Positions 42,001-51,000 of a DNA stretch of 64,000 nucleotides are shown here, piece by piece. This stretch comes from a plasmid: the NCBI RefSeq assembly GCF_056746865.1, contig NZ_JBWKMP010000002.1. One strand, given 5' to 3'. The position numbers are program-made. The number at the start of each line of letters is the position of its first letter. Positions within the stretch are counted from its first letter, which is position 1.

Positions 42001-45000
42001 TGAACCGACTTGGACGAGTTAGGCGTCAGTTGATAAGTCTTACCTGATTCATTACTGGTTACGTCAAAAGGATGGATTAACTCGTTGTTTTTAATCATTA
42101 ACTTAACTCGTCGGTGATAAGATTTTCATTTGGCAAACTGTTTATAACATATTCTTGCAAATGCTTTTTACGCATTAACCTAAATGCCATAAGCATTCCA
42201 GTAAATGCCTTCCTTATTCATTCAAATGCTTTTCGCATGCATCCGAATGCCGGATCCTTTCATAAAGTCACTATAATCAATGAGTTAAAGATGCCGTGAT
42301 CTTTACTTGAACTCTATTGATCTTTAGTGATCTAAAGAATTGATCTATCCTGTTGAAAACAATGATAAGTCCATATAAAACAAGGAATAGCGCTCCTTTA
42401 ACAATATCTACAGATCGCAAACGGAAATGAACGAGGGTCTACTATCATTGTTTTATTCAAGACAGTTTTTATTTTAATTTTATTAAGCAAATTTTTTGAG
42501 TTTACCTTTTAGATGTATCAGCCCTATTTGGCAAATTTGAGGTTCATGTATCATGTAGTAAACAGGAGGAAGATATGAACAACAGCAAACATACAGTCAT
42601 TGAAGTGGATACTAATCTAGTTGAAATTGAAAAGGGATTTAATCCCCGAGAGGCGGTAATCGGAGATTTGTGTTACGAACAAGAACCTGTCAAGTCGATG
42701 ATTGTGTCAATCAAACAAGCCTTTAAGGAAGGAAGGCAGGTTGATATGATCAAGGTCGTAAAAAGAAAAGGTAAATATTTAGTTCGTCAAGGTCATACTC
42801 GTTTTCATGGCTTAAAATTAGCAATTTCTGAAGGTGCTAATATTCCAAAATTATCTGTTATCCTAATCGATTATAAAAACGAAATTGAAGAATACCTTGA
42901 GAACCTCGATGGTAACAGAAGCAATGGGCTAAATCCGGTTGGGCAAGCTCATGCATTAGCTCATGCTGTTAGTCTCGGGTATTCGGTTGAAGAACTAGCA
43001 ATGCGATATCAACGATCAACTACCGCAATTCGTAATATGCTAAAAATCCTTGATATGCCATTAGAGCTTCAACGTTTGATTAGCCTAAATCTAATCAAAA
43101 AAACGCTCGCCATTGAAATAATGTTAAAATATTCCAACGATCACAAAATGGTTTTAAAACATATAGAAGGTTTCTTACCTGGCGTTAAGAATATTGAGAC
43201 TACAACGAGCAAAATTGTAGGCATACCTGAACACAATGCAGCTGGAGCAGGACCAGACACCTTAAATAAAGGCGGACCAGAAAAGAAAAATTCGGCAGTC
43301 ACTCGTAAGACTTTGGGTATTAAGCGCCTCTCGCATAAGAAAACAGAACGGCTAAAATCTGAATTTCTTGAGCTTGTGGAAAGTACACATACGGAATCTA
43401 TAACGAATACTCAAACAGAACTAAAATTTGGTAGAGATAGTGCACACTTGTTCAAAAATGTTAATAGTAATAATGTAATATTTTCCAATGATGGTGTTCA
43501 AATAATCTTGAATGATGAAAAGCTAAATATTTTATTGTCTTTACTTAACGACGAAAATACAGCAATCATTGTTTCTAAACCAAAATTAGAAGAGCTTCTG
43601 GAAATTCGAGATCTCCTTAAGGAATATTAAAAACGAGGATTAGTTGAGTGATTAAACCTATAAAGCTGACTCTTATCGATAATTATAGTGATTTGCTTCT
43701 AACTCATGAAGTCCTTAAACGCAACATGGAAGAGTTAGAACACGGTAAACGTTTTGATCAATTTCCTGAAGGGCATGACCACTATGAAAAAACTGTGAAA
43801 GAAGCTGTAGCAATCGTAGAGGCACGTTTGGAGGTGTTTCGAAAATGAAATCTCTTTTCTTTACTCTTGATGGTCATATGGTACCAGCCTCAGTGAATGT
43901 ATCACTTAACGGAGATGGAAATTATTATGCACCTATCGAAAGAGAATGTAACGAATGTGCGGGCACAGGCCACAAAGGGGCTGATTTATGTGAAAAGTGT
44001 CATGGGGTACAAACAGTTGGACCCATTATTGAAAAATTAGTGGCACTAGAGCCAATTACCTTTCTCGATAACATTCCGGAACTGCGTGTTAACCCAACAC
44101 TCGAAGCATGGAAATCCAGAAACCACGTCCTTATTGAGAAAGCAAAAAAGGCTAACACTAAGTTTTCTAATAGTATATTGGCGCAATTAGACAATAACCG
44201 TTTCTTGACAGAACGCCAGCTGGATTGTTTCTTTACAACTTTTGATGTGATGTTGTCTGAAACTCCGGAAAATGAACAAGAAATTTTAAAACATAGCTAC
44301 AATATCGGCCAGGTCATAAGCATTGAACTAACATTTACTGAAGTCAGGGCCGCGTACGCAAAAAGTAAAGGGAGTTATTTTTTTACATTTACTGGTAAAG
44401 TTAGAAATGACGGGATCGCTTTAACGGCCGATAAACAGGATCACATTTTATTGGGTGAACGTTATCATTTGACTGGAAAAGTCAGAAAATTCTATGAATT
44501 TGATTCGAAAAATTATGCTGCAATAACAGTTTTTAAGTTAAATAAACTCCAAGACAGTTAAATGTTTTTGCTGCTTAAATATAGAGCCAAGACTTTAACT
44601 GTCGTTAGGACTCACTCACGTAATATTGTTGCTTACGCAATGGGTTTTATCCCTCATAAAGATCTGCGAGTATAAATCTTTTACATTTAAATTCCCCTCT
44701 ATCAGAACCTTTTCTATTGTAAAAAAATGATAATCTTATTAATTATAATTTTAATTTTTTGTATACCAATACCATACAGTTAAGGCTAAAAGGTGATGAT
44801 GGAGATGGACTTTAAAATGCACAATGATCTGGGTCTCGGTTTCATTTGTAAAAATGCAAGAACATCGTCAAAGCCAACGTTAAGAAAAGTTACTTTTCCG
44901 GTAAGCGCATATGAAACGTCTAAGCTTTCTTTAACCGGTTTTCAATGCCCCACAGCCTGCCGTTTTCCTTTTTTTGTGCTATGCATGATAATCCATAACC

Positions 45001-48000: not shown

Positions 48001-51000
48001 ATAATTTACTTTTGGCAAAGTGCTGGTTTTGTCAGAGTCATTAAGGATTCAGGCTTTTTGCCCGCCTTTTTTAAACCTCCATGTATCGTTCTTGCCCCGT
48101 TTATGCGGGGCTTTTTTTTTGCTTCTTTCTATGAGTTGACATCTTTAAGTTTTATTCAGAGACATAAAAAACTTTTTCGTGTCACTGAACCTATTAGGTT
48201 ACTGAGCGACGTTGCTATCCTGGTAAAAGTTTTTTCTAAAGGACCGGTAAAATGTCATCTCTTGATTCTGAAGCTAAACCCGATAATGCAGGTCACAGCG
48301 TACTGGCTTTAACAACCTCTCATAGCCTGGTGGTTAGCTCTCCTGAAACATTTCTTCCAGATATGCGCAAAGAGCTCGGCATTATCGCGGATCTTGTTGA
48401 GTCCTATAATGATGAACTCTGCTTGTTGAAACTCATGGCTGTCCAGTTCAAAACCCACAATCACCAGAAACTTTATTCTTATCTCTCAGGCTACAACCAC
48501 AGCATCTCAGAAGCGGATGCTTTGTTCGCAGAAAACGCTCTGAGATCAGAATACTGGAAATGCGTTATGGCACTCACTGATGTTTTGCCTATCATGTCGG
48601 ATGCCAAACGTAACGAATGGGATAAGCAGTTTACGGCCGACCGTTATATTATGCCGCCTCAGGTGATCCCTGATTTCACAGCTGACGCTGTAGTGGGCAC
48701 AGTCGTTGCTTTGCTTAATGACCGCAATCAATTTATTAAAGAAAGGGTTTACGACGTCTTCCAGTCTCTGAGCCGCAGTCACAAGACAAACAAAGCTTTT
48801 GGGTTCTCCACCCGCATGATCACTACCGGAGTTTGCGAGCCGTCTAAATACCCCTGGCAGAAATTAAGGGTGGATTTTAAAGAGTCTGGCATTTCACCGC
48901 TGAGCGAGCTCCGCGTTATATGCGCATTCTTCCGTGGCGAACAGGTGAAGGCGATCCATAACACCAAATCATTGGTTGAGGCGTTGGTCGAACATGAGGG
49001 GTTCAGAAAATGGATCTGCATCGATGGCAACAGTATTCGTTTCAGGGTTTACAAAAATGGATCAATGCATATTGACGTCCACCCTGATATCGCCGAGCGG
49101 CTTAACAATATTTTATCAGCTATCGTACCGCTGGCATTACCTGCCGACCGTATGGCTCATAGCAAGAAATCTTTGGAGGCATTCCCTGTACTTAAGCAGT
49201 GCATCGACTTTGATACCCGGATGCAGCTTTCTGAACTGATGTTTAAAAATGACGGGGACAATAAATGGAGTTGCTGGACATCTTTAGGGTCTCTAGCCAA
49301 CGCAAATCTTCGAGTGTTGCCGCTGACACCCTTCGGTTCTTAGGGGCAACAGTAACAAAATACGATGTGACATTTTCCTATGATCCGTGTGAGGTTATTC
49401 GTTACATCGGCCAGATAGGGGAGATGCCTGATATTGTATCGCATCAGTTTTACCCTTCATCTTGCCGAATCAGCGAATATGATATCTTCCCTGCTTGGTG
49501 CAGGGGAAGGGGATACCCTCCTGGAGCCTAATATTGGCCATGCGGATTTGCTTAAATCATTCCCTGCCGGTGTGATCGTTACTGGCATCGAGCTTGATAC
49601 TTTGAATTGCCTTATCTCCCGGGCTAAGGGATACGATACGACAGAAGCTGACTTCCTCACATGGTCTAAGTCTAATCAACAGAAGAAGTTTGATTATGTC
49701 GTGATGAACCCACCTTTTGCCGATAACCGGGCCAGGCTGCATCTCCAGGCAGCTGCATCTCATCTCGCAGCCGGGGGATCTCTAGCAGCCGTTCTTCCAT
49801 TATCTCTTCAGGGGCTCGATAACCTTTTGGGGGAAGAATTCCGGACGGAATGGATGGACGTTTTTGAGAACGAGTTTGAAAACACGACCGTTTCGGTTCG
49901 CATCCTGTACGCCGAACGTATTCAACAAGAGGAAGTCCTATGAGCAACCAACCCACCAGCCTGCCAGAAGAAGATATTGAGTTTGTTATGGATACCTTTC
50001 AGAGGAGCATGGGTAAATCCAAGCCTGTCAGGGATACTCAACTAGAGGGTGAGAAACCGCAAAGTAAAGAGTCCGCAAACTCAACTGAAAACCCCGGTTA
50101 TGAAGAATTCTATTAATTACGCTCATGATATCCTGGTGCAGTTATTTAGAATGATATTTGAGGGATGGGGGACATTGTGATTAAAAGGCGTAACATTCGA
50201 CGATCAGTTTATGGATTGCTTATTGTTCTTATCGCCGGAAATGTGTGGTTAGGCCTTAGAGCTGATAAAATTCATAAAGTGCGTTATCAGGATTTCTGGT
50301 CACCGGCAACTGTGATTAAAGTAACTGTAATGCCTTCAACGAATGAAACCCAGCTCAGTGGTAAAATCCCTAAATCGGTAAGAGTTTCAAACAATTATGT
50401 TGAGTACTCGTTACCGGGCACACTCTCGGCCAAGACCATTTACCGAAGCGTGTTAGAAGATGAGATGCTCACTTTGCTTAATGCTGGAGGTCAACTTGAA
50501 GTTAAATACACTCTGGACAAGCAGACAAATCGAACTAAGGTATGCACTAAGTGCTTACGGGTGATTAAAGATATTAACCATCAATATTCAGCCACTGAGG
50601 TAAAGCATGGGCAGTCCAAAATTTGAAATTGCTGAGCAAATTAAAATGTGGATCGTTGTTTATCTAGTTTGCTTTTTAGCACTTTACTGTGTGTTAAGCG
50701 CTCTACATGCGCTTTATGATCCGCTAAATTTACCAGCCCTGACGTGGCCTATCAGCTGGTTCCTGGTGCCTGAAATGACAAGTTTTGGCAGTGCATTATT
50801 AGCTTTTGTCCTAACGCCAGGCCTTTGCTCTATAATTGCTGTTTTATTCGGTAAGTCTATCTTTAAAAAAGCTAAAACAAAAATATAGAGTTAATTAGAT
50901 TGGTGGCTCAGGTTTATAAAACCTCTCACTAGTGAGGTTTATTTTTTATTTTTGGCTGAGATTAACAGCGTTTTCCATAAATGTATCAATAACAACCGTA

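What the first reader, a model, noticed from the sequence alone, without database searches (positions are those of the whole stretch)
42575..50116. Cluster with two ParB-like nuclease-domain paralogs, an orphan Dam methyltransferase and a second frameshifted methyltransferase
Two paralogous proteins with ParB N-domain motifs (GFNPRE / GFNSRE; RQGHTRF / RQGHCRL) lie 3 kb apart, separated by a zinc-ribbon protein and a divergently transcribed Dam-like methyltransferase. A gamma-class methyltransferase with an N-terminal extra domain follows, split by a frameshift. None sits in a canonical parAB operon and no restriction enzyme gene is nearby. Orphan methylases and ParB-like proteins are recurrent in plasmid leading/establishment regions and can act in anti-restriction or gene silencing; the duplicated ParB-like pair and the methylase pair together are unusual.
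Basis: partly seen in the sequence, partly recalled or inferred. Interest (0 to 1): 0.5.

Follow-up and report, generated by a model that had tools for sequence, protein, structure and literature searches.

The report
IncHI plasmid orphan ParB/methylase backbone cluster
This is a conserved, uncharacterised backbone block of IncHI resistance plasmids, with two orphan ParB-type DNA-binding proteins, an orphan Dam methylase and a second adenine methylase whose "frameshift" is almost certainly a sequencing error. Its most interesting lead is a 13-bp palindrome scattered over the plasmid that may be the operator of one of these ParB-like proteins.

Summary
All the ORFs exist as described. The window is IncHI2 plasmid backbone, found in more than 1,100 public plasmids. 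The whole cluster is syntenic in IncHI1, and all eight ORFs are under purifying selection.

The two ParB-like proteins are true paralogs. They have a ParB N-domain plus an HTH; the model is closest to KorB, Noc and CTP-binding ParBs. They are orphans, because ParA/ParB and ParM/ParR modules lie elsewhere in the window.

Dam aligns end-to-end with the GATC enzymes EcoDam and DpnM. No restriction enzyme was detected.

The second methylase consists of DUF4942 followed by an NPPF N6-adenine methylase domain. Its "frameshift" is a -1/+1 indel pair absent from 1,108 plasmid and 269 E. coli records. It is one of many private indels in this record, which also split traK and parB, so it is probably an artefact.

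The cluster lies next to a replicon and Tra2, about 60 kb from the relaxase/oriT. It is therefore not a classical leading region.

One new lead emerged. The palindrome AAAAGT-N-ACTTTT occurs 19 times in the window (0.63 expected) and about 40 times across the backbone. It is conserved in three further IncHI-type lineages and lies upstream of ParB-like#2 in all four. This suggests KorB-like control, but nothing here shows which protein binds it.

The parts
42575..43630 (+). ParB-like#1 (351 aa). An orphan ParB-family protein with an N-domain (GFNPRE, VRQGHTR, DGNRSNGLNPV), an HTH and a C-terminal helical block.
   Evidence: ORF. phrog_1033 1.9e-25. HTH_ParB 1.4e-5. TIGR00180 33.9 bits, below cutoff. 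Paralog of #2. IncHI1 ortholog 59% identical, dN 0.33 with dS saturated.
43648..43848 (+). 66-aa ORF, likely in an operon with ParB-like#1 and the zinc-finger gene.
   Evidence: Conserved in IncHI1 with dN/dS 0.18. Annotated as a CDS in reference plasmids. Its stop overlaps the start of the next gene.
43845..44561 (+). Zinc-finger-like protein (238 aa) with a DnaJ-type CxxCxGxG...CxxCxG motif. Function unknown.
   Evidence: Weak NCBIfam hits to the anti-TRAP and DnaJ zinc fingers at residues 30-57. PGAP name "zinc finger-like domain-containing protein". Conserved in IncHI1.
44817..45650 (+). 277-aa protein of unknown function, convergent with Dam. A copy of the palindrome lies 68 nt inside its annotated 5' end (44885-44897).
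   Evidence: Real gene: 63% aa identity to IncHI1, dN 0.28 with dS saturated. No Pfam, NCBIfam, PADLOC, PHROG or PDB match. Not co-conserved with Dam in L013.
45659..46471 (-). Orphan Dam-family N6-adenine DNA methyltransferase, probably GATC-specific.
   Evidence: TIGR00571 1.5e-67, 228 bits against a cutoff of 114.85. Aligns end-to-end with EcoDam 2g1p (2e-39) and DpnM 2dpm, with KWAGGK, YNGMCRYN, VPWG and DPPY conserved. PADLOC orphan/type II methylase models.
46472..46840 (.). Divergent Dam / ParB-like#2 control region. It holds a promoter-like site (46598-46627, +), the palindrome variant AAAAGTACCTTTT (46749-46761) and two 25-nt direct repeats (46717-46741 and 46755-46779).
   Evidence: The same 1-mismatch palindrome sits at the same position in IncHI1. 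Equivalent sites lie upstream of the ortholog in the Klebsiella plasmid and in L013.
46841..48004 (+). ParB-like#2 (387 aa), annotated "DNA-binding protein". An orphan ParB-family protein with KorB/Noc/ParB-like N-domain + HTH architecture and a long C-terminal helix.
   Evidence: phrog_1033 3.5e-28. HTH_ParB. AF2 pLDDT 89, pTM 0.80. Foldseek top hits are CTP-binding ParBs, Noc and KorB, with the best TM-score to 8qa9. Family of 661 representative clusters with N71, G121 and R124 invariant. dN/dS 0.056 against IncHI1.
48094..48111 (+). Intrinsic-terminator-like hairpin with a T-run, between ParB-like#2 and the DUF4942 methylase.
   Evidence: GCCCCGTTTATGCGGGGC followed by T9.
48252..49943 (+). 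DUF4942 + NPPF N6-adenine methyltransferase. It is 563 aa when intact. In this record it is interrupted by a -1 at about 49299 and a +1 at 49482.
49940..50116 (+). 58-aa ORF overlapping the methylase stop codon.
   Evidence: Conserved in IncHI1, dN/dS 0.12.

Best explanation
The region is a conserved housekeeping and establishment block of the IncHI plasmid backbone. It lies between a RepB-type replicon/Tra2 and the Ig-like (RSP-type) gene.

**What it encodes**
1. Two diverged paralogous orphan ParB-family proteins. Each has a ParB N-terminal nucleotide-binding fold with a divergent Box II (G-H-x-R instead of G-E-R-R), an HTH and a C-terminal helical domain. I infer that these are sequence-specific DNA-binding regulators of the KorB/Noc type, not partition proteins or nucleases.
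2. An orphan Dam methylase, probably GATC-specific. It is transcribed divergently from ParB-like#2, and this pairing is co-conserved in a distant relative.
3. A DUF4942 + NPPF N6-adenine methylase.
4. Four small or unknown proteins.

**Proposed mechanism (inferred)**
- The methylases modify plasmid DNA, and possibly host DNA. This lets the plasmid tolerate restriction systems and supply Dam-dependent functions in any host.
- ParB-like#2 controls its own promoter and the Dam promoter. It may also control other backbone promoters through the dispersed palindrome AAAAGT-N-ACTTTT.

**The frameshift**
The methylase "frameshift" in this window is a record-specific sequence error or private lesion, not a feature of the element.
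For: **Identity and conservation**
- 100% or near-100% matches in 1,119 plasmids typed IncHI2A/MOBH/MPF_F.
- Full synteny in IncHI1-type pO111_1.
- dN/dS far below 1 for all eight ORFs.

**ParB family and architecture**
- Family assignment.
- High-confidence model and matches to ParB, Noc and KorB.
- Invariant GFN-x-R and G-H-x-R motifs across 85 family members.

**Orphan status**
- Canonical ParA/ParB and ParM modules lie elsewhere in the window.
- No LG[KR]GL ParA-binding motif is present in either N-terminus (sequences).

**Dam**
-.
- The Dam (47% identity) / ParB-like (41% identity) divergent pair is conserved in metagenomic contig L013.

**DUF4942 methylase**
-.
- DUF4942 proteins occur in a bona fide leading region.

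**Frameshift private to this record**
-.

**Palindrome**
- 19 sites against 0.63 expected, with strict 6-N-6 spacing.
- It is the only over-represented palindrome in the window.
- It is restricted to the backbone.
- It is conserved in IncHI1, Klebsiella IncHI1B/FIB and L013, and sits upstream of the ParB-like#2 gene in all four lineages.
- It is absent from the canonical parA promoter.

**Precedents**
- KorB (PMC11790492), HerB (PMC13370423), IncC ParB with dispersed parS (PMC10954446), and orphan methylases in establishment regions (PMC11541004).
Against: - No experimental data exist for any of these genes.
- Both ParB-like proteins fall below the curated TIGR00180 cutoff, and Pfam ParBc does not hit.
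- Box II lacks the Glu and the first Arg of G-E-R-R, so an NTP switch is uncertain. Nucleotide specificity cannot be predicted from sequence (PMC12704722).
- The HTH recognition helix of ParB-like#2 is poorly conserved between IncHI2 (PTTISSLIRL) and the Klebsiella lineage (EMAVRQIISL), although both carry the same palindrome.
- About half of the palindrome copies lie inside coding regions.
- The Klebsiella IncHI1B plasmids keep ParB-like#2 without Dam or the DUF4942 methylase, so the genes are not an obligate unit.
- Methylase motif I is slightly degenerate in IncHI2: G-H-A.
- The cluster is about 60 kb from oriT.
Confidence: 0.6

Rival explanations
1. The dispersed 13-bp palindrome is the parS of the canonical SopB-like ParB, as with IncC ParB and RK2 KorB. 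The two orphan ParB-like proteins then do something else. Possibilities include transient host reprogramming or nucleoid binding after transfer (like HerB), or an anti-defence role.
For: - In IncC, 14 dispersed palindromes are bound by the canonical ParB, some of them inside ORFs and one near the "parB-like regulator" gene (PMC10954446).
- The canonical ParB is better conserved between IncHI2 and the Klebsiella lineage: 48% identity with a ...KRIQAA helix. ParB-like#2 is only 36% identical, with a divergent recognition helix.
- HerB shows that orphan plasmid ParB proteins can target the host chromosome.
Against: - No palindrome copy lies at or near the canonical parA promoter in the window or in the Klebsiella plasmid. 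The proven IncC parS sits in PparA.
- A 2.5-kb tandem array directly upstream of parA is a more typical type Ia centromere and contains no palindrome copy.
- The ParB-like proteins are half the length of HerB and lack its D3 and D4 domains.
Confidence: 0.25
2. The ParB-like proteins are partners of the neighbouring DNA-modifying enzymes. They would load at specific sites and recruit or activate Dam and/or the DUF4942 methylase. This would be a split version of ParB-methyltransferase fusions, or of the ParB-activated phage T-dioxygenases.
For: - ParB-fold fusions to DNA methylases are common on mobile elements (PMC12704722).
- A phage ParB activates a DNA dioxygenase on dsDNA (PMC13229309).
- The Dam / ParB-like#2 divergent pair is co-conserved at 47% and 41% identity in L013.
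- IncC has an orphan ParB-like gene three genes upstream of an orphan methylase.
Against: - Dam-family enzymes are autonomous.
- The Klebsiella lineage has ParB-like#2 without either methylase.
- DUF4942-methylase homologs in a phage-plasmid-like replicon and in an Alteromonas plasmid have no ParB neighbour.
- A terminator separates ParB-like#2 from the DUF4942 methylase.
Confidence: 0.12
3. The cluster is a restriction-modification or other defence system. The 277-aa protein convergent with Dam would be the nuclease, and the ParB-like proteins would be nucleases or sensors.
For: - The Dam / 277-aa gene arrangement is convergent with an 8-bp gap, which is typical of type II R-M pairs.
- The Pfam name of the ParB N-domain is "ParB-like nuclease".
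Against: - The 277-aa protein has no hit in Pfam, NCBIfam, PADLOC, PHROGs or PDB.
- It is not co-conserved with Dam in L013.
- The ParB-like proteins and small ORFs have no PADLOC hits.
- GATC is not depleted in the window: 224 observed against about 237 expected.
- The ParB-like model has an HTH and matches DNA-binding switches.
Confidence: 0.03
4. The frameshifted methylase is a genuine pseudogene or a phase-variable or programmed-frameshift gene in this plasmid.
For: - The sequence as given carries the two indels, which restore the frame after 61 codons.
Against: - The out-of-frame stretch contains four stop codons.
- The indels are not in repeat tracts.
- 0 of 1,377 related records share them.
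- The same record has private indels that split traK, parB and another backbone gene. This pattern fits sequencing error.
Confidence: 0.05

Closest known systems
KorB of IncP-1 plasmid RK2 (ParB-family CTP-dependent sliding clamp and global repressor)
   Same: - ParB N-domain + HTH architecture, with the best structural TM-scores to the KorB-KorA complex 8qa9.
- A plasmid-wide set of 13-bp 6-N-6 palindromes, several of them in promoter regions. KorB has 12 13-bp operators (as quoted in PMC10954446; PMC11790492).
   Different: - No adjacent ParA/IncC partner and no ParA-binding motif.
- Box II is G-H-x-R rather than G-E-R-R.
- No KorB C-terminal domain hit.
- About 40 sites rather than 12.
- Binding of the palindrome by these proteins has not been shown.
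IncC/IncA "parB-like regulator" (R55_24) and the IncC ParB-parS network
   Same: - The IncC orphan ParB-like protein is a homolog, about 30% identical.
- It belongs to a related MOBH/MPF_F plasmid and is likewise separate from the ParA/KorB-type ParB operon and near an orphan methylase.
- The IncC backbone also carries dispersed palindromes (PMC10954446).
   Different: - The IncC palindrome (TTTCACATGTGAAA) differs in sequence. It is bound by the canonical ParB and sits in PparA.
- The IncHI palindrome is absent from the IncC locus and from the IncHI parA promoter.
[quoted passage not shown]
   Same: - An orphan, plasmid-encoded ParB-like protein with a nucleotide-binding N-domain and an HTH.
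- Not involved in partition (PMC13370423).
   Different: - HerB is 652 aa with extra D3 and D4 domains, and is zygotically induced next to oriT.
- The window proteins are 351 and 387 aa, lack those domains, and lie about 60 kb from oriT.
E. coli Dam / DpnM (GATC N6-adenine methyltransferases) and plasmid or phage orphan methylases
   Same: - End-to-end homology, with conserved DPPY and DNA-contact segments.
- No cognate nuclease was found.
   Different: - Scores only 169 bits against the E. coli Dam equivalog model, whose cutoff is 441, so it is a distinct plasmid lineage.
- Specificity has not been measured.
DUF4942 proteins (e.g. YgfB of the IncI leading region) and M.TaqI / M.BseCI-type N6-adenine methylases
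   Same: - The N-terminal part matches PF13708.
- The C-terminal Rossmann domain with NPPF matches gamma-type N6-adenine methylases.
   Different: - This protein fuses the two modules. Both also exist separately on IncHI2: a DUF4942-only gene and a methylase-only paralog at window 62252-63076.
- There is no C-terminal target-recognition domain.
- The substrate (DNA or RNA) and the motif are unknown.

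Membership tests
ParB/KorB/Noc family (ParB-CTPase fold + HTH) | N-terminal ParB fold recognisable by profile or structure | tested here: met
   phrog_1033 1.9e-25 and 3.5e-28. Foldseek probability 1.0 to 7bnk, 7bm8, 6sdk, 7ng0 and 8qa9. However, TIGR00180 scores only 33.9 and 32.5 bits, below the 58.45 cutoff, and Pfam ParBc does not hit.
ParB/KorB/Noc family (ParB-CTPase fold + HTH) | Central HTH DNA-binding domain | tested here: met
   Pfam HTH_ParB 1.4e-5 and 1.7e-4. 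Helices 185-192 and 196-207 in the model.
ParB/KorB/Noc family (ParB-CTPase fold + HTH) | Canonical Box II G-E-R-R-x-R-A (CTP binding and hydrolysis) | tested here: not met
   The proteins read Q-G-H-T-R-F-H and Q-G-H-C-R-L-K. Only the Gly and the last Arg are invariant in the 85-sequence family alignment.
ParB/KorB/Noc family (ParB-CTPase fold + HTH) | CTP (or other NTP) binding and clamp closure | not testable with these tools
   Specificity cannot be predicted from sequence or AlphaFold (PMC12704722).
Canonical ParABS partition system | Adjacent parA gene and an N-terminal ParA-binding motif LG[KR]GL | tested here: not met
   The neighbouring genes are a rep gene, a 66-aa ORF, Dam and a methylase. 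Neither N-terminus contains the motif (sequences). The true ParA/ParB pair is at window 24.4-26.7 kb.
HerB (YfjB) family | Four domains D1-D4 (about 650 aa), each at least 80% covered (PMC13370423) | tested here: not met
   The proteins are 351 and 387 aa. After the HTH the model has only a helical C-terminal region.
Dam family (TIGR00571) | Profile score above the curated cutoff, plus the DPPY catalytic motif | tested here: met
   228.1 bits against a cutoff of 114.85. YCDPPY aligns to EcoDam.
Dam family (TIGR00571) | GATC specificity | not testable with these tools
   Inferred only, from conservation of KWAGGK, YNG(M)CRYN and VPWG against EcoDam and DpnM. The E. coli Dam equivalog model scores 169 bits, below its 441 cutoff.
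Type II restriction-modification system | Cognate restriction endonuclease gene next to the methylase | tested here: not met
   The convergent 277-aa ORF has no nuclease or any other hit. It is not co-conserved with Dam.
DUF4942 (PF13708) + N6-adenine amino-methyltransferase | PF13708 match, motif IV (N/D)PP(F/Y), and motif I SAM loop | tested here: met
Plasmid leading-region (early establishment) gene set | Location within the first tens of ORFs from oriT on the leading side, oriented so that the T-strand is the template | tested here: not met
   The cluster is about 60 kb and more than 50 ORFs from mobI/MobH relaxase. The transferred strand and transfer direction of IncHI are unknown, so the orientation criterion cannot be tested.

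The most novel reading that the evidence does not exclude
ParB-like#2, possibly together with its paralog #1, is the IncHI counterpart of KorB. Under this reading it is an orphan, NTP-dependent ParB-type clamp that loads at about 40 dispersed AAAAGT-N-ACTTTT sites. Through these sites it would coordinate expression of the pilus/Tra2 operon, the Ig-like RSP conjugation factors, Dam and itself across IncHI1, IncHI2 and Klebsiella IncHI1B plasmids.
Probability: 0.3. Interest if true: 0.65.

Novelty: new member of a known kind. Interest (0 to 1): 0.4.

Why it matters
IncHI2 and IncHI1 plasmids are major carriers of mcr-1, ESBL and typhoid multidrug resistance. Their backbone regulation is known only for TrhR/TrhY/HtdA and H-NS/Hha.

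If one of these orphan ParB-like proteins reads the dispersed palindrome, IncHI plasmids would have a KorB-like global control circuit. That would give a defined DNA target and a protein to perturb in order to affect transfer or stability.

The orphan methylases may help explain the broad host range despite restriction barriers.

In practical terms, the finding also flags the source record as error-prone. Several of its "pseudogenes", including this methylase, traK and parB, should not be interpreted biologically.

Tried and rejected
1. **The 277-aa ORF as Dam's restriction enzyme.** It has no hits in four HMM libraries or in PDB, and it is not co-conserved with Dam.
2. **ParB-like#2 + DUF4942 methylase as an obligate two-gene module.**
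   - A terminator lies between them.
   - Homologs of the methylase elsewhere have no ParB neighbour.
   - The Klebsiella lineage has the ParB-like gene without either methylase.
3. **HerB membership.** The proteins are too short and lack the D3 and D4 domains.
4. **A second operator-type palindrome for the other paralog.** A systematic scan found only one over-represented palindrome.
5. **Defence-system membership.** PADLOC hits only the methylases.
6. **Identifying the window's source record.** No identical record exists in PLSDB or among complete E. coli genomes.
7. **Literature on these genes.** Searches for DUF4942, IncHI + ParB-like and IncHI leading region found no functional study.
8. 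**Assigning the palindrome's binder from HTH conservation.** The result was inconclusive.
9. **A coordinate error, now corrected.** Coordinates first transferred from pFORC82_1 were offset by up to 1,374 bp left of 39.7 kb and by 215 bp right of 51.35 kb. They were corrected using the window's own ORFs.

Full report
**What the window is.**
- Bases 42000-50700 match 1,119 plasmid records, 661 of them at 99% identity or more. The records come from Escherichia, Salmonella, Enterobacter, Klebsiella and others.
- The best matches are typed IncHI2A, MOBH relaxase, MPF_F.
- In pTB601 and pFORC82_1 the gene order is as follows:
  - Tra2 genes (trhC to the pilin gene), on the minus strand up to about 40.1 kb.
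  - A RepB-family replication initiator, 41223-42098 (-), flanked by iteron-like repeats.
  - The cluster.
  - An Ig-like (RSP-type) gene, 51730-54186.
  - repHI2.
- The MobI / MobH relaxase / TraD region, which presumably holds oriT, lies about 60 kb further right. It is separated from the cluster by a long array of mostly + strand small genes.

**Checking the observation.**
- The two ParB-like proteins are real paralogs: 30% identity over 174 aa, E=4e-22.
- Both match phrog_1033 "ParB-like partition protein" (1.9e-25 and 3.5e-28) and Pfam HTH_ParB.
- They score below the curated TIGR00180 cutoff, and Pfam ParBc did not hit.
- Dam is unambiguous: TIGR00571 gives 228 bits against a cutoff of 114.85.
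- The zinc-ribbon protein has a DnaJ / anti-TRAP-type CxxCxGxG finger.
- All eight ORFs, including the odd-looking 277-aa ORF and the 66-aa and 58-aa ORFs, are conserved in IncHI1-type pO111_1 in the same order.
- Against IncHI1, synonymous divergence is saturated and dN is 0.18-0.42. They are therefore real genes under purifying selection.

**The "frameshifted" methylase.**
- The two ORFs (48252-49343 and 49434-49943) are in the same frame.
- Compared with pTB601, the window has a substitution at 49295, a 1-bp deletion at about 49299 and a 1-bp insertion at 49482. These put 61 codons out of frame, with four stop codons.
- In pTB601 and pO111_1 the gene is one intact CDS of 563 or 558 aa.
- None of 1,108 PLSDB plasmids or 269 E. 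coli records has the window's version. All are 98.7% identical over this 231-bp stretch.
- Against two references that agree with each other, the window also carries a string of other private 1-bp indels, mostly outside homopolymers.
- These split the TraK secretin gene into ORFs of 161 and 268 aa. They also destroy the canonical parB reading frame and split another backbone gene.
- A 215-bp segment present in both references is missing at 51351.
- This pattern fits record-level sequencing or assembly error far better than biology. I treat the methylase as intact in the element.

**The ParB-like proteins.**
- A deep search found 661 representative clusters at E<=1e-3.
- An 85-sequence alignment shows three invariant residues: N71 (in GFN-x-R), and G121 and R124 (in VR[D/Q]GH-x-R). 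It also shows a conserved (S/D)(N/G)xGLxLxPL block and an HTH.
- The AlphaFold model of ParB-like#2 is confident: pLDDT 89, pTM 0.80.
- It matches CTP-bound ParBs, Noc and KorB. The best TM-scores are to the KorB-KorA complex 8qa9.
- The architecture is therefore a ParB N-domain plus an HTH plus a helical C-terminal part. It is not a stand-alone nuclease.
- Box II is G-H-x-R rather than G-E-R-R. NTP binding or hydrolysis may be altered as a result, and published work shows that specificity cannot be predicted (PMC12704722).
- Both proteins are orphans.
  - A type Ia ParA with a SopB-like ParB lies at about 24.4-26.7 kb, and a ParM module lies at 19.6-21.3 kb.
  - Neither ParB-like protein has the LG[KR]GL ParA-binding motif.
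- Homologs occur at several distances:
  - About 74% identity in IncHI1.
  - About 36% in Klebsiella IncFIB/IncHI1B plasmids. There the gene lies between Tra2 and an Ig-like gene, with no methylases nearby.
  - About 30% in IncC plasmids, where the literature calls it a "parB-like regulator".
  - More distant members lie directly upstream of ParA / KorB-type ParB / HTH_43 operons.
- A 41%-identical metagenomic relative keeps the divergent Dam partner, which is 47% identical.

**The methylases.**
- Dam aligns end-to-end with EcoDam (2e-39) and DpnM, both GATC enzymes. The KWAGGK, YNG(M)CRYN, VPWG and DPPY segments are conserved. GATC specificity is likely but is only inferred.
- No restriction partner was found.
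  - The convergent 277-aa protein has no hit in Pfam, NCBIfam, PHROGs, PADLOC or PDB.
  - It is not co-conserved with Dam.
- GATC is not depleted in the window.
- The second enzyme has DUF4942 at residues 96-290 and a C-terminal Rossmann domain.
  - NPPF is invariant in 24 homologs.
  - Motif I reads E-P-N-I-G-H-A, a slight degeneracy.
- Its model (pLDDT 81) matches N6-adenine methylases of both DNA (M.BseCI, M.TaqI, HsdM, CamA) and rRNA (METTL5, KsgA/Erm). The matches cover only the C-terminal 150-200 residues. The DUF4942 part has no solved counterpart.
- Full-length homologs (about 30% identity) occur in 105-112 kb non-mobilizable plasmids among phage-type genes, and in an Alteromonas plasmid. 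Neither context has a ParB neighbour.
- A DUF4942-only protein, YgfB, lies next to oriT/nikA with ardA in an IncI plasmid.
- The IncHI2 backbone also carries:
  - A stand-alone DUF4942 gene.
  - A stand-alone paralog of the methylase module, at window 62252-63076, 27% identical, E=5e-12.
  - At least two further orphan methylases.

**An unexpected feature: a backbone-wide palindrome.**
- AAAAGT-N-ACTTTT occurs 19 times in the window at up to one mismatch, 10 of them exact. The expectation is 0.63, and none of 100 shuffles reached 19.
- The spacing is strict.
- It is the only over-represented palindrome in the window.
- It recurs through the rest of the IncHI2 backbone, including Tra1 and the mobI-upstream region. 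It is absent from about 35 kb of resistance/IS DNA.
- It is also over-represented in:
  - IncHI1: 3 sites in 13 kb.
  - The Klebsiella IncHI1B/FIB plasmid: 12 sites in 15 kb against 0.15 expected.
  - L013, where it is present in core form.
- It is absent from the IncC locus.
- Positions are conserved although IncHI1 and IncHI2 share only about 65% nucleotide identity:
  - 31-105 bp upstream of the ParB-like#2 start codon in four lineages.
  - Upstream of the Ig-like genes.
  - Upstream of the pilin gene.
  - At the 5' end of the 277-aa ORF.

**Who binds the palindrome is unresolved.**
- *For ParB-like#2:*
  - The palindrome sits at its own promoter in four lineages.
  - The protein has KorB-like architecture.
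  - No copy lies near the canonical parA promoter. By contrast, the proven IncC parS sits in PparA.
  - A 2.5-kb tandem array of 249-bp units next to parA is a likelier type Ia centromere.
- *Against ParB-like#2:*
  - Its recognition helix is poorly conserved between IncHI2 and the Klebsiella lineage.
  - The canonical ParB is better conserved.
  - The IncC precedent, in which the canonical ParB binds dispersed sites, points the other way.
- Tra regulators (TrhR/TrhY/HtdA) are not excluded.

**Interpretation.**
- *Shown:*
  - The gene content.
  - The family assignments.
  - The orphan status of the ParB-like genes.
  - Conservation of the cluster.
  - The private nature of the indels.
  - The existence and conservation of the palindrome.
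- *Inferred:*
  - The ParB-like proteins are sequence-specific regulators of KorB/Noc type.
  - Dam methylates GATC.
  - The DUF4942 enzyme methylates DNA adenine.
  - The methylases aid establishment against restriction.
  - ParB-like#2 reads the palindrome.
But the cluster is ordinary IncHI backbone far from oriT, not an unusual arrangement, and the frameshift is not biological.

**Verdict.** This is a new, uncharacterised member of a known kind: plasmid orphan ParB-like regulators plus orphan methylases. Interest in the cluster itself is moderate to low. It is raised somewhat by the testable hypothesis of KorB-like control in a clinically important plasmid group.

Noticed in passing
Window sites 3891, 4367, 4685, 10890, 14437, 18330, 18524, 23566, 34953, 37012, 37262, 40316, 41101, 44885, 46749, 51497, 51562, 58263, 60487. 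Also in L003, L004, L005, L006, L007, L012 and L013.: The 13-bp palindrome AAAAGT-N-ACTTTT is strongly over-represented: 19 sites against 0.63 expected. It is restricted to the backbone and conserved in IncHI1, Klebsiella IncHI1B/FIB and a metagenomic relative. Copies lie upstream of ParB-like#2, the Ig-like genes, the pilin gene and the mobI region. The binding protein is unknown.
   Followed up: partly
window 27061-29603: A non-coding tandem array of 249-bp units, 10.4 copies at 68% matches, lies between parA and trhC. It contains no ORF of 100 aa or more and no copy of the 13-bp palindrome. It is a candidate centromere or incompatibility array for the type Ia ParA/ParB.
   Followed up: no
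window 15720, 19114, 23115, 24215-25020, 30636-31126, 37785, 55795, 61936; gap at 51351: The record carries many private 1-bp indels relative to two concordant references. They split traK (ORFs 37281-37766 and 37750-38556), the canonical parB (only 24996-25406 remains as an ORF) and a backbone gene (22602-23129 / 23071-23439). A 215-bp segment is also missing at 51351, which truncates a conserved 208-aa gene to the ORF at 50946-51338. The record looks error-prone.
   Followed up: partly
window 40501-40997 and 42150-42251: Iteron-like 18-21-bp repeats (ATTCATTCAAATGCTTTT and variants) occur in both orientations on either side of the RepB-family rep gene at 41223-42098. They are presumably the replicon's origin and control repeats.
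   Followed up: no
window 62252-63076 (-): A third methylase gene (253-274 aa; LEPEFGDG ... VMNPPF) is a stand-alone paralog of residues 348-515 of the DUF4942 methylase: 27% identity, E=5e-12. In the reference plasmid the IncHI2 backbone also has a DUF4942-only gene, a "site-specific DNA-methyltransferase", a Dcm-type methylase and a 794-aa PAPS-reductase-family gene, all outside the window.
   Followed up: partly
L011 5722-6570 (IncI-gamma/K1 plasmid pCH49): A DUF4942-only protein (YgfB, 282 aa) is the second gene from oriT/nikA in the IncI leading region, in the same array as ardA. This links the uncharacterised DUF4942 domain to early establishment functions.
   Followed up: partly
L007 9147; L012 8722 and 11259 (Klebsiella plasmid pC260_1): Each of three Ig-like repeat protein genes has a palindrome copy about 25-40 bp upstream of its start codon. 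Five copies cluster within 350 bp upstream of the pilin gene (L007 4209-4552). This suggests co-regulation of the pilus and the Ig-like conjugation factors.
   Followed up: no
L013 1062-3342 (JGI metagenome contig): A Dam ortholog (47% identity) and a ParB-like#2 ortholog (41% identity) form the same divergent pair as in the window. A perfect palindrome, CAAAGTTACTTTG, lies 31 bp upstream of the ParB-like start codon.
   Followed up: partly
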